Shown: positions 4,559-64,000, counted from the first letter of the stretch. The stretch: 64,000 nt of DNA from Eledone cirrhosa (GCA_964016885.1 OZ024757.1:5952001-6016000), one strand, 5' to 3'. The notes: generated by a model from the letters alone, not told the origin. Program-made: numbers and translations.

Positions 4559-6156
4559 TTATGATTTCTCCTCTGCATGTATCAGTTTGTGGCTAGTTAA
4601 GATACTACTAACACAGAATGATTTACCACAGATATCACAGTGATATGGCTTGTCTCCTGTATGGGTACATTTGTGGCTAGTTAAGGTACCATTTTGAGAG
4701 AATGATTTACCACAGATATCACAGTGATATGGCTTGTCTCCTGTATATGTACGTTTATGTGTAGTTAAGTTACTACTTAGAGAGAATGATTTACCACAGA
4801 TATCACAGTGATATGGCTTGTCTCCTGTATGTGTAAGTTTATGTGTAGTTAAGTTACTACTTAGAGAGAATGATTTACCACAGATATCACAGTGATATGG
4901 CTTGTCTCCTGTATGGGTACGTTTGTGGCTAGTTAAGGTACCACTTAGAGAGAATGATTTACCACAGATATCACAGTGATATGGCTTGTCTCCTGTATGT
5001 GTACGTTTATGCGTAGTTAAGTTACTACCTAGAGAGAATGATTTACCACAGAAATCACAGTGATATGGCTTGTCTCCTGTATGTGTAAGTTTATGTGTAG
5101 TTAAGTTACTACTTAGAGAGAATGATTTACCACAGATATCACAGTGATATGGCTTGTCTCCTGTATGTGTACGTTTATGTCTAGTTAAGTTACAACTTAG
5201 TGAGAATGATTTACCAAAGATATCACAGTAATATGGCTTGTCTCCTGTATGTGTACGTTTATGTGTAGTTAGGCTACTACTTTGAGAGAATGATTTACCA
5301 CAGATATCACAGTGATATGGTTTGTCTCCTGTATGTATACGTTTATGTGCAGTTAAGTTACTACTTTGAGAGAATGATATACCACAGATATCACAGTGAT
5401 ATGGCTTGTCTCCTGTATGTATACGTTTATGATTAAATAAGGATCTACTTTCAGAGAATGATTTACCACAGATATCACAGTGATATGGCTTGTCTCCTGT
5501 ATGGGTCCGTTTGTGGCTAGTTACAGCCCTACTTCCAGAGAATGATTTACCACAGATATCACAGTTATATGGCTTGTCTCCTGTATGTATAAGTTTATGC
5601 TTAAATAAGGATCTACTTTCAGAGAATGATTTACCACAGATATCAGTGATATGGCTTGTCTCCTGTATGTGTACGTTTATGTGCAGTTAAGTTACTACTT
5701 CGAGAGAATGATTTACCACAGATATCACAGTGATATGGCTTGTCTCCCGTATGTGTACGTTTATGTGTAGTTAGGCTACTACTTTGAGAGAATGATTTAC
5801 CACAGATATCACAGTGATATGGCATGCCTCCTGTATGGGTAGGTTTGTGATCAGTTAAGCGACTGCTGAGAGAGAATGATTTACCACAGATATCACAGTG
5901 ATATGGCTTATGTCCTGTATGGGTACGTATGTGAGAAGTGAAGTCACTACTTCGAGAGAATTATTTACCACGGATATCACAATATGGCTCCTGTATGTAT
6001 AACTTTGTGAGTAGTTAAGGTACTAAGTTTATTAAATGATTTACCAGATATCACAGTGATATGGCTTCTCTTCTCTAACCTTCGTCATCTCACCAGGAAT
6101 ACTAAACACTTTAGATTGTGTTACACATTTAATCTTCTTTGTCAAATATTTTTCAT
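4559..6156 (-). pseudogene. Disabled tandem C2H2 zinc-finger gene, ~18 fingers (copy A)
   Basis: 84-bp units encoding [28 protein letters not shown] ending HAEEKS*; 1-bp deletion after the ATG, 2-bp deletions near 6046 and 5645, TAA at 5961-5963, deletions near 5980-5990; the 3' ~12 fingers remain open. Confidence 0.85.
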
Positions 6157-6611
6157 AATTATTCCTTCTTCAACAGAATATACAGATGTTTTCCTTGTAA
6201 TTTTTTTATATTATAATTCTTATAAAATATTTCTTCTTCTATATTTCCCTCAACTATATTTCATATAACATCTGAAGATAATACAAACTTCTTTTTCATC
6301 CACGTTTAGTTAAAATACAAAATCATCTTATAGTGAAGAAAATAAACTCAGTTTTGAGGAAATATTTCACAGTAATACGATGAGAGATTTATATAAACAG
6401 TGTTATATAAGTTCTGCTTAGAATGTTTTAGTCTTAAAATGATGATAAATAGAGGTGATGTATCCAAGATTGAAAATAATAATTTATCCCAATGTCATCT
6501 GATATTCTGAAATAAGAAAGAAACAGTATGAGATAATACAGAATACTTTAGAAGCAGAGATAGATTTAACAGTGGGAATTTTATATTTCTATATTGGTAA
6601 ATTGTAGACTA

Positions 6612-7135
6612 CCTTGAGTAGAAGATTATGGAAGTTAAAGGACCCCATAGCCAGTGACAAATTTAAAAGCCTATTACTTGATGCCTTTGACAATAAGGAA
6701 GATCAATTAGAGACATGCAATATAGAGGAAGAGTGGCAATCCTTGAAAGTGAACCTGCTGAAAGCAACAGTCAGTAGGAACCTCTAACAAAATACACCCC
6801 CGTCCCACTACCCCCACCCCATCCACACCACCCCCTTAAATGTAAAGTTATGTTGGAACCACAACATCCAGTCCGAAACAAATGAGGTCGTGTAGGTGTC
6901 ACGACAAAAAAAAAACCACACAGTCCATGCTGTAATGTGGCCATGTAGGTAACACGGTAAAAACCTCCCAGTCCACACTGTAAATGTGGTTGGTGTTAGG
7001 AAGGGCATCCAGCCGTAGAAAACCCACCAGACAGTCCTATGCGAGCAAGACAACCATTCTTGCCTCAAGTGGGAAAACTCCCGTCCAAACCCATGCTAGC
7101 GTGGAAGATGGACGTTAAACGATGATGATGATGAT
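6612..7135 (+). mobile_element. Internally deleted RTE LINE copy
   Basis: 6625-6767 matches 42910-43050 and is joined directly to the 3' UTR matching 45164-45516; (GAT)n tail. Confidence 0.8.
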
Positions 7136-7139
7136 GTAT

Positions 7140-62389: not shown

Positions 62390-62998
62390 AGAATGATTTA
62401 CCACAGACACCACAGGGATATGGTTCCTCTCCTGTATGTTAGTGTTTAGTGAAGCCACAACATTTAGAGAAGGATTTACCACAGACATCACAGGGATATG
62501 GTTCCTCTCCTGTATGTTAGTGTGTAGGGAAGCCACAACATTTAGAGAAGGATTTACCACAGACATCACAGGGATATGGTTCCTCTCCTGTATGTTAGTG
62601 TGTAGGGAAGCCACAACATTTAGAGAAGGATTTACCACAGACATCACAGGGATATAGTTCCTCTCCTTATGTTAGTGTGTAGTGAAGCCACAACATTTAG
62701 AGAATGATTTACCACAGACATCACAGGGATATGGTTCCTCTCCTGTATGTTAGTGTGTAGTGAAGCCACAACATTTAGAGAAGGATTTACCACAGACATC
62801 ACAGGGATATGGTTCCTCTCCTGTATGTTAGTGTGTAGGGAAGCCACAACATTTAGAGAAGGATTTACCACAGACATCACAGGGATATAGTTCCTCTCCT
62901 TATGTTAGTGTGTAGGGAAGCCACAACATTTAGAGAAGGATTTACCACAGACATCACAGGGATATGGTTCCTTTTCTGTATGTTAGTGTGTAGTGAAA
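62390..62998 (-). repeat. 78-bp tandem array of a dead zinc finger in the 3' UTR region of copy D
   Basis: ~8 units reading [25 protein letters not shown] in finger frame; period 78, two units of 77. Confidence 0.9.
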
Positions 62999-63379
62999 CC
63001 AAAATTAGAAATTGATTTACATGGGTGGAGGTGACGAGAGCAGACCTCTTAAGCTCACGGTGTAGATGACAAAGGACCGTGACAAGTGGAGAGATCCTGT
63101 GCTGAATAGGACCCATCCCACCCTTGCAAGCAGGGAAAAGAGGACGTAAAATGATGATGATATGGTTTCCCTCATCTATACCTATATATAGTTAAATTGC
63201 TCCATTAAAAGATATATTTTCCAAACATATCAAAGTGATATGGCTTCTCACCTGTATATGTTTGTGTGAAGTTAATGTAACATTGAAAGAGAATGATTTA
63301 CCATAGATATTACACTGATATATATTTGTATTCTCATTAATTCACAATTTTGAGAGGATTTATCACTGATGTCAATGCA

Positions 63380-64000
63380 TTAAGATTTCTCCTCTGCATG
63401 TATGAGTTTGTGAGTAGTTAGGCTACTTTTTCCAGAGAGTGATATACCACAGATATCACAGTGATATGGCTTGTCTCCTGTATGGGTACGTTTGTGGCTA
63501 GTTAAGTTACTACTTTGAGAGAATGATTTACCACAGATATCACAGTGATATGGCTTGTTTCCTGTATGTATTCGTTTGTGGCTAGTTAAGTTACCACTGT
63601 CAGAGAATGATTTTCCACAGATATCACAATGATATGGCTTGTCTCCTGTATGTATATGTTTGTGGCTAGTTAAGTTACCACTATCAGAGAATGATTTACC
63701 ACAGATATCACAATGATATGGCTTGTCTCCTGTATGGGTACGTTTGTGTCTATTTAAATGACCACTTACAGAGAATGAATTACCACAGATATCACAGTGA
63801 CATGGCTTGTCTCCTGTATGGGTACGTTTGTGTCTATTTAAACGACCACTTACAGAGAATGATTTACCACATATATCACAGTGATATGGCTTGTCTCCTG
63901 TATGGGTACGTATGTGTCCCGTTAAGTTACTACTTTGAGAGAATGATTTACCACAGATATGACAGTGGTATGGCTTTTCTCCTGTATGTATACGTTTGTG
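63380..64000 (-). CDS. Tandem C2H2 zinc-finger protein, 3' part (copy D, >=7 fingers)
   Basis: 207 open codons from the window edge to [10 protein letters not shown] (TAA at 63380-63382); not in the ORF track because the start lies outside the window. Confidence 0.9.

What the first reader, a model, noticed from the sequence alone, without database searches (positions are those of the whole stretch)
4559..64000. KRAB-less poly-zinc-finger cluster: finger arrays diverge far faster than their own introns
Seen: cassettes B and C are almost base-for-base identical over ~3.8 kb of intron (18666-22460 vs 50865-54725) and in the leader, yet their finger arrays differ in number (12 vs 11), order and recognition-helix residues. 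A (~18) and D have different repertoires again. Established: C2H2 helix positions -1, 2, 3 and 6 set DNA specificity; vertebrate KRAB-ZFPs evolve this way against transposons; octopus has large clustered C2H2 expansions. Inference: these genes may be a convergent, fast-turnover sequence-recognition (possibly anti-transposon) repertoire sitting among young RTE, SINE, mariner and Helitron copies.
Basis: partly seen in the sequence, partly recalled or inferred. Interest (0 to 1): 0.75.

Follow-up and report, generated by a model that had tools for sequence, protein, structure and literature searches.

The report
Shuffling octopod zinc-finger gene family
These are four copies of a large, already known kind of zinc-finger gene family, likely from an octopus, whose DNA-reading fingers are reshuffled unusually fast; the flagged contrast of identical introns with different fingers arises because one copy is a recombinant patchwork, and a role against transposons is plausible but untested.

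Summary
The cassettes are real: B 12 fingers, C 11, D 14, and A 18 units but frameshifted. The B-C tract is 98.4% identical and the arrays 84.8%. The comparison is not like-for-like. B's upstream tract groups with C (100/100); its 3' flank groups with two other loci (100/100), and its array matches one of them at 10 of 12 fingers; AU tests reject the alternatives. Tested across 119 parsed copies, the idea survives in weaker form: 25 of 33 co-inherited pairs gained or lost finger units, arrays diverge 2.8x flanks in intact pairs (1.3x in broken pairs), and helix positions -1, 3, 6 are 5.4x more diverse than four-fold sites. Recent change mostly reshuffles a shared pool of fingers, PRDM9-like. 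TE targeting by octopus zinc fingers is already proposed in print (PMC10547256), and this scan noted the shuffling before on other DNA of this genome. Not found in my searches: a very conserved predicted non-coding first exon and a 30-residue leader with a SUMO-type motif, a candidate KRAB substitute. No expression or binding data.

The parts
4559..6065 (-). Cassette A finger array, 18 units, frameshifted near its start; likely pseudogene
12310..12689 (-). A: conserved 5' block, predicted non-coding first exon with donor at 12336
17216..18319 (-). Cassette B ORF: 30-aa leader plus 12 C2H2 fingers, intact; array and 3' flank closest to L027 and L031
18320..18665 (-). B predicted 5' UTR part of the finger exon; candidate acceptors at 18666 and 18433, in-frame stop before the ATG; holds the ancestry switch
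18660..22815 (-). Recently exchanged tract shared by B and C (98-99%), holding a mariner fragment and 60/61-bp satellites; predicted intron
27600..28300 (-). B: conserved 5' block (predicted promoter, non-coding first exon, donor at 27907, intronic element)
49491..50516 (-). Cassette C ORF: 31-aa leader plus 11 fingers, intact; 3' flank groups with L117
50865..55130 (-). C copy of the exchanged tract
58909..59290 (-). C: conserved 5' block with donor at 58935
62388..63020 (-). Non-coding 78-bp repeat derived from the finger unit, 3' of D (about 8 copies; 1-2 counted behind A, B, C)
63380..64000 (-). Last 7 of 14 fingers of cassette D (intact; continues beyond the window)

Best explanation
These are members of a likely octopod family of several hundred tandem C2H2 genes whose 84-bp finger units behave as a coding minisatellite: recombination within and between copies gains, loses and swaps units from one shared pool, diversifying selection likely keeps helix positions -1, 3 and 6 variable, and cassette B is a recombinant whose upstream tract is shared with C while its fingers come from another lineage. 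Shown from sequence: mosaic B, unit turnover, shared pool, excess diversity at contact codons, conserved Cys/His/Phe/Leu. Inferred: unequal crossing-over and gene conversion as the physical mechanism; selection as the cause of the excess; a two-exon structure with a shared 5' block giving a common expression programme. Most likely purpose (about 45%): a KZFP/FiNZ-like library of sequence-specific repressors aimed at changing repeat DNA, possibly recruiting silencing through SUMO on the leader (about 20%). Binding, expression and repression are untested.
For: Mosaic: sliding windows; trees with B+C 100/100 in the intron end, B+L027+L031 100/100 and C+L117 97/97 in the 3' flank, p-AU 2e-4 and 4e-5 against the alternatives; B and L027 match at 10 of 12 fingerprints. 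Turnover: unit gain or loss in 25 of 33 co-inherited pairs, including 10 of 11 broken-broken pairs; array/flank divergence 3.68%/1.30% in 7 intact pairs and 1.83%/1.41% in 11 broken pairs. Shared pool: divergence within arrays equals that between arrays (0.148 vs 0.145 at third positions, 0.526 vs 0.532 at contacts); 41 of 45 contact changes in strongly differing units of intact pairs are variants already at 2% or more in the pool. Selection: diversity 0.529 at first/second bases of codons -1, 3, 6 vs 0.098 at four-fold sites (ratio 5.4, bootstrap over genes 4.8-6.2), 0.013 at structural residues; the third base of codon 3 stays at 0.10 while its first two are 0.60 and 0.56 (335 units of 32 distinct intact arrays).
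Against: Broken copies carry the same contact diversity (0.533 vs 0.112) and also change unit number, so much turnover is mechanical and the selection signal may be old. New point-like changes show only a marginal contact excess in intact pairs (5 of 18, p=0.037; broken 11 of 75, p=0.18). Only 33 of 92 multi-finger copies sampled are intact. The array/flank ratios include units that may be mis-paired, sites are not independent, and some pairs may be alleles or assembly duplicates. Many fingers have small residues at contacts (position 3: T 36%, A 12%, S 10%; position 6: S 36%, T 19%), which by recalled recognition rules read DNA weakly. Octopus C2H2 duplicates are reported mainly in nervous tissue (PMC12513265, discussion), which fits a neural role as well. 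An assembly chimera at B is not excluded.
Confidence: 0.75

Rival explanations
1. One reading: B and C are recent whole duplicates and selection drove their finger arrays apart while the intron stood still.
For: 98.4% identity over 3795 bases next to arrays at 84.8%.
Against: The 3' flank is 90-91% and the leader 90-94%; B's array is 97.3% identical to a third locus; trees of the two flanks conflict significantly.
Confidence: 0.04
2. Neutral minisatellite churn: the family is mostly selfishly amplified, decaying DNA; contact diversity is an ancient leftover and nothing selects on it now.
For: 59 of 92 multi-finger copies are not scored intact (14 of them because no array end was found); broken pairs gain and lose units too; a non-coding finger-derived repeat varies from 0 to 10 copies; near-identical 2-finger copies are amplified on several contigs.
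Against: Structural residues are nearly invariant in intact copies (0.013 vs 0.038 in broken); intact pairs diverge faster than broken ones (2.8x vs 1.3x) and have more contact changes (45 of 120 vs 50 of 226, p=0.003); homogenisation that flattens synonymous sites to 0.10 should also erode neutral contact diversity; the 5' block is held at about 2%.
Confidence: 0.15
3. Same shuffling mechanism, but the selected purpose is neural gene regulation or cell-identity diversity rather than repeat silencing.
For: Cephalopod C2H2 duplicates are expressed mainly in nervous tissue and fall in different co-expression modules (PMC12513265, abstract and first part of discussion).
Against: Predicted motifs of octopus ZNFs are enriched in TE consensus sequences (PMC10547256, section 6); very fast turnover and frequent loss fit poorly with fixed developmental targets (inference).
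Confidence: 0.25
4. The B-C tract identity is an assembly artefact (a chimeric join), not a biological exchange.
For: Highly repetitive region; sharp edges to the tract.
Against: The two copies differ at 30 non-satellite sites in 3180 bases and in satellite unit number; the 330 bases between the tract and the ATG carry changes private to B.
Confidence: 0.08

Closest known systems
Coleoid/octopus C2H2 expansions (PMC12513265: abstract, part 1 of discussion, passages; PMC9068888: passages)
   Same: Large clustered, lineage-specific tandem C2H2 genes; the finger style and the leader match Octopus proteins.
   Different: In the parts I read these papers do not treat finger-unit shuffling, leader motifs or a shared first exon; PMC12513265 calls the TE arms race an open question.
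Cyprinid FiNZ-ZNFs (PMC10547256: passages and section 6)
   Same: KRAB-less, hundreds of copies, short conserved N-terminal peptide (28 aa there, 30-32 here), selection at base-contacting residues; the paper also reports predicted TE binding for octopus ZNFs. Its morpholino target translates to a start with a psi-K-x-E pattern (my reading).
   Different: FiNZ lies on its own upstream exon; here the leader is in the finger exon and the predicted first exon is non-coding. No sequence homology was tested. TE repression is shown for FiNZ, not here.
Tetrapod KRAB-ZFPs
   Same: Clustered birth-and-death tandem C2H2 genes with variable contact residues and TE-filled introns.
   Different: No KRAB in B or C, in the leaders or in a genome search (control uninformative).
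PRDM9 finger array (PMC3890296: abstract)
   Same: Coding minisatellite with variable unit number and replacement changes concentrated at codons -1, 3 and 6.
   Different: Multi-copy family, no PR/SET, KRAB or SSXRD in the ORFs; the pool is shared between loci, not only between alleles.

Membership tests
Octopod tandem C2H2 expansion | Tandem classical C2H2 fingers with TGEKP-type linkers | tested here: met
   12 and 11 zf-C2H2 stretches
Octopod tandem C2H2 expansion | Hundreds of clustered paralogues | tested here: met
   768-822 first-look candidates for the leader (not copy numbers); 119 copies parsed from many contigs
Octopod tandem C2H2 expansion | Homology to Octopus proteins outside the generic finger | tested here: met
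   Leader profile hits O. bimaculoides P0015 at residues 1-27 (E 7.7e-5 among 121 proteins) and weakly P0045 (E 0.017); species not determined
Octopod tandem C2H2 expansion | Neural/embryonic expression | not testable with these tools
   no RNA holder listed
KRAB-ZFP | KRAB-A domain on an upstream coding exon | tested here: not met
   in-frame stop precedes the ATG in B and C
KRAB-ZFP-like TE repressors (works like) | Excess replacement diversity at helix contact positions | tested here: met
   ratio 5.4 at -1, 3, 6; weak at 2
KRAB-ZFP-like TE repressors (works like) | Binding to and repression of TE families | not testable with these tools
   no motif predictor, ChIP or knockdown data
FiNZ-ZNF | FiNZ peptide on a separate upstream exon | tested here: not met
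   leader is contiguous with the fingers; the predicted first exon shows only a short closed ORF on inspection
PRDM9 | PR/SET, KRAB and SSXRD domains | tested here: not met
   not among the 25 families shown for each of B and C; the ORF holds only 30-31 residues before the fingers
PRDM9-like array (works like) | Homogenised 84-bp units with variable number and diversity at -1, 3, 6 | tested here: met

The most novel reading that the evidence does not exclude
Octopods evolved their own KRAB equivalent: a 30-residue leader whose conserved psi-K-x-E site is SUMOylated to recruit SETDB1-type silencing, expressed from one nearly invariant first exon/promoter shared by hundreds of genes, while recombination swaps finger units and whole finger exons under that promoter to build a changing anti-repeat library.
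Probability: 0.18. Interest if true: 0.8.

Novelty: new member of a known kind. Interest (0 to 1): 0.45.

Why it matters
Whether the huge cephalopod C2H2 expansion serves brain development or TE defence is stated as open (PMC12513265). The family data give per-site evidence of diversifying evolution and of how new specificities arise (shuffling a shared pool). The near-invariant 5' block and shared start region offer a single handle for family-wide knockdown, as was done for zebrafish FiNZ genes, and the leader gives a testable effector candidate. The case also warns that intron identity cannot date finger arrays in recombining clusters.

Tried and rejected
Expression: no RNA holder listed. 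Laying contigs of runs X1-X3 (one sample) on 16800-20200 gave listed pieces of at most about 100 bases, so the B junction could not be tested. Full-length protein search returned generic C2H2 proteins; the leader profile against 1.84 billion representatives gave 1 hit of another kind of repetitive protein; residues 1-40 of P0015 found only itself, so the spread of the leader across octopods rests on a handful of proteins. Pfam finds nothing in 21 of 21 leaders. KRAB genome search: no match, control rang nowhere. Rfam: only two Histone3 stem-loop hits, none in the conserved block; the block folds at z -2.65, largely through AT repeats, not pursued. No tRNA. A coding role for the first exon was rejected by inspection: all frames close before or just after the candidate acceptors. 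Motif prediction against TEs was not run (no recognition-code tool). The 2-finger copies on C20/C27/C19/C16 were left out of pool and pair statistics (5-unit and 4-unit cut-offs). Direction of the B-C exchange is unresolved. Supplements were not read; Supplemental Fig. 8 and Data 3 of PMC10547256 may hold octopus entropy and TE matches bearing on novelty.

Full report
Setting. The window is G000:C18:5952001-6016000 of a 3.0-Gb genome. It holds four minus-strand C2H2 cassettes. The organism is likely an octopod: the leader peptide matches Octopus bimaculoides proteins and the finger style matches Octopus entries. I did not determine the species.

Observation. B (ORF 18319-17216) has 12 fingers and C (50516-49491) has 11; both are intact. 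D has 14 fingers, 7 in the window. A has 18 units, frameshifts near its start and no ATG in its long ORF. B 18666-22460 differs from C at 62 of 3795 bases; the arrays are 84.8% identical. But the 5' leader is 94.2%, the coding leader 90.0%, the 3' flank 90.4-91.5% and upstream DNA 93-98%. The near-identical part is an island of about 4.2 kb. A 61-bp satellite inside it has 10 vs 11 units and 94.8% identity, showing what tandem repeats do even within the island.

B is a mosaic. The best genome match to B's tract is C (99%, next 95%), but the best matches to B's 3' flank are two other C18 loci (98%, 97%; C 91%). Sliding windows show B within 0-2% of C over most of 18700-22700 and within 0-6% of L027 from the start codon through the array and 3' flank. 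B and L027 both have 12 fingers, differ by 2.7% and match at 10 of 12 fingerprints. Trees on 19 copies place B with C in the intron end (100/100) and B with L027 and L031 in the 3' flank (100/100), C going with L117 (97/97); AU tests reject the other grouping in each segment (p 2e-4 and 4e-5; three long-branch rows are unreliable). The mariner fragment in the tract is 98% B-C and 95-96% in eight other family introns. Which copy was donor is unresolved, and an assembly chimera could not be tested.

The proper test. I fetched 140 stretches chosen from the top 40 hits of six searches plus neighbours, so the sample leans towards relatives of A, B and C. From the first 120 and the window, 119 copies were parsed; 92 have five or more units, 33 of them intact, 32 broken within two fingers, 14 without a found end. 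Among copies with both flanks within 3.5%, a spanning set of 33 pairs shows unit gain or loss in 25 (different unit number in 24). Array vs flank divergence is 167/4536 vs 114/8797 in 7 intact pairs (2.8x) and 333/18205 vs 193/13666 in 11 early-broken pairs (1.3x). These ratios include possibly mis-paired units, and some pairs may be alleles. Arrays do turn over faster than flanks, but by a few fold, and unit-number change happens in pseudogenes too.

Contact positions. In 335 internal units from intact genes, Nei-Gojobori pN is 0.54 at -1, 3, 6, against scaffold pS 0.20 and scaffold pN 0.08; position 2 has pN 0.21. Per base, diversity is 0.529 at the first two bases of codons -1, 3, 6, 0.098 at eight four-fold sites and 0.013 at Cys/His/Phe/Leu; ratio 5.4 (4.8-6.2). 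The third base of codon 3 stays conserved beside two hypervariable bases, which argues against a local mutation hotspot. Units are as different within an array as between arrays, and 134 fingerprints recur across genes, so the family draws on one pool. First and last fingers are much more constant (last finger GSST in 49 of 78). Against ongoing selection: broken copies show the same pool diversity (ratio 4.8), and point-like changes are only marginally enriched at contacts in intact pairs (5 of 18, p 0.037; broken 11 of 75, p 0.18). In strongly differing units of intact pairs, 41 of 45 contact changes are existing pool variants. New specificities therefore arise mainly by shuffling. This is the pattern described for the PRDM9 minisatellite (PMC3890296, abstract).

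Gene anatomy (predicted). A consensus donor lies at 27907 in B, 12336 in A and 58935 in C; acceptors lie at 18666 and 18433 in B, with matching patterns in 114 and 93 of 119 copies. An in-frame stop precedes the ATG, so the protein is a 30-32-residue leader plus fingers; no KRAB was found. The block around the donor has 775 first-look candidates, like the leader's 768-822; 9 of 11 long stretches behind such hits hold a finger array on the same strand within 10 kb. It is the most conserved part: 8 copies found incidentally differ from B by 1.75% in the core and 12.3% just upstream, and C27 genes selected as best hits are 99% identical to B here while their finger-exon leaders are 77-80% identical, gaps included. 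Strong purifying selection on a promoter/5' UTR or homogenisation could each explain this.

Leader. In 21 aligned leaders the lysine of an I/V-K-x-E motif is invariant and the full motif is present in 19 (14% in shuffles, though the rows are related and not independent); it is kept in 20 of 25 intact and 14 of 14 early-broken copies. Four of 7 short-leader Octopus proteins examined carry such a motif, including the same IKCE in P0015. That this pattern is the SUMO acceptor consensus is recalled, not from a call. SUMO-dependent recruitment of SetDB1/Wde silences transposons in Drosophila (10.1101/533091, abstract). The leader's constraint is modest (0.063 at first/second vs 0.115 at third bases), so this is a lead, not a finding.

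What is known. Wells et al. [quoted passage not shown] Holzinger et al. (PMC12513265; abstract, first part of discussion, passages) describe octopus-specific expansions with neural expression and call the TE arms race open. PMC9068888 and PMC12988792 (passages) document the clustered expansion. Searches for array shuffling in octopus, SUMO in cephalopod C2H2 and a shared first exon listed no paper on those points by title or abstract start; most subscription papers are not in the library.

Verdict. The headline contrast is a recombination by-product. The family-level picture is real, well supported and of a known kind; its anti-transposon purpose remains a published, untested hypothesis. The conserved 5' block and the leader motif are the parts worth following. 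Interest 0.45.

Noticed in passing
window 27600-28300 (also 12310-12689, 58909-59290): A ~700-bp block with a splice donor is about 98% identical across family members whose finger-exon leaders have diverged by up to 20%; it has a short closed ORF and sharp edges.
   Followed up: partly
window 18230-18319; L130:3295-3390: 30-32-residue leader with a conserved I/V-K-x-E motif, homologous to leaders of Octopus bimaculoides proteins; candidate SUMO site.
   Followed up: partly
L004-L020, L091, L096, L097: Near-identical copies collapsed to two fingers are amplified at roughly 80-210 kb spacing on C20 and on C27, C19, C16, C23; three have a His-run read-through end.
   Followed up: partly
window 62388-63020, 4231-4429: Non-coding 78-bp repeat derived from the finger unit in the 3' flank; 0-10 copies across the family.
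   Followed up: partly
window 11718-11762 and 27198-27242: Rfam Histone3 stem-loop hits inside a palindromic insert present in A and B but absent from C, another sign of mosaic ancestry.
   Followed up: no
window 20625-21239, 52828-53503: 61-bp satellite that by inspection resembles the 3' end of the local RT-bearing LINE; 10 vs 11 units in B and C, longer arrays in C20 copies.
   Followed up: no
window 45906-46322, 35892-36048, 36797-36990: Orphan fragments of the conserved 5' block between B and C, likely relics of deleted units.
   Followed up: no
window 37762-39900, 42324-45140: Two broken LINE copies in opposite orientation with RT and a PHD-like finger, about 75% identical.
   Followed up: partly
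L110, L113-L115, L082: The longest arrays (31-34 units) are in broken copies; median 21 units in early-broken vs 12 in intact genes, suggesting selection limits array length or long arrays break more often.
   Followed up: no
L029, L101, L105, L113 vs L030, L103, L102, L115: A C28 region at 126.5-126.9 Mb closely mirrors C18 at 6.4-6.6 Mb; recent segmental duplication or misplaced haplotype.
   Followed up: no
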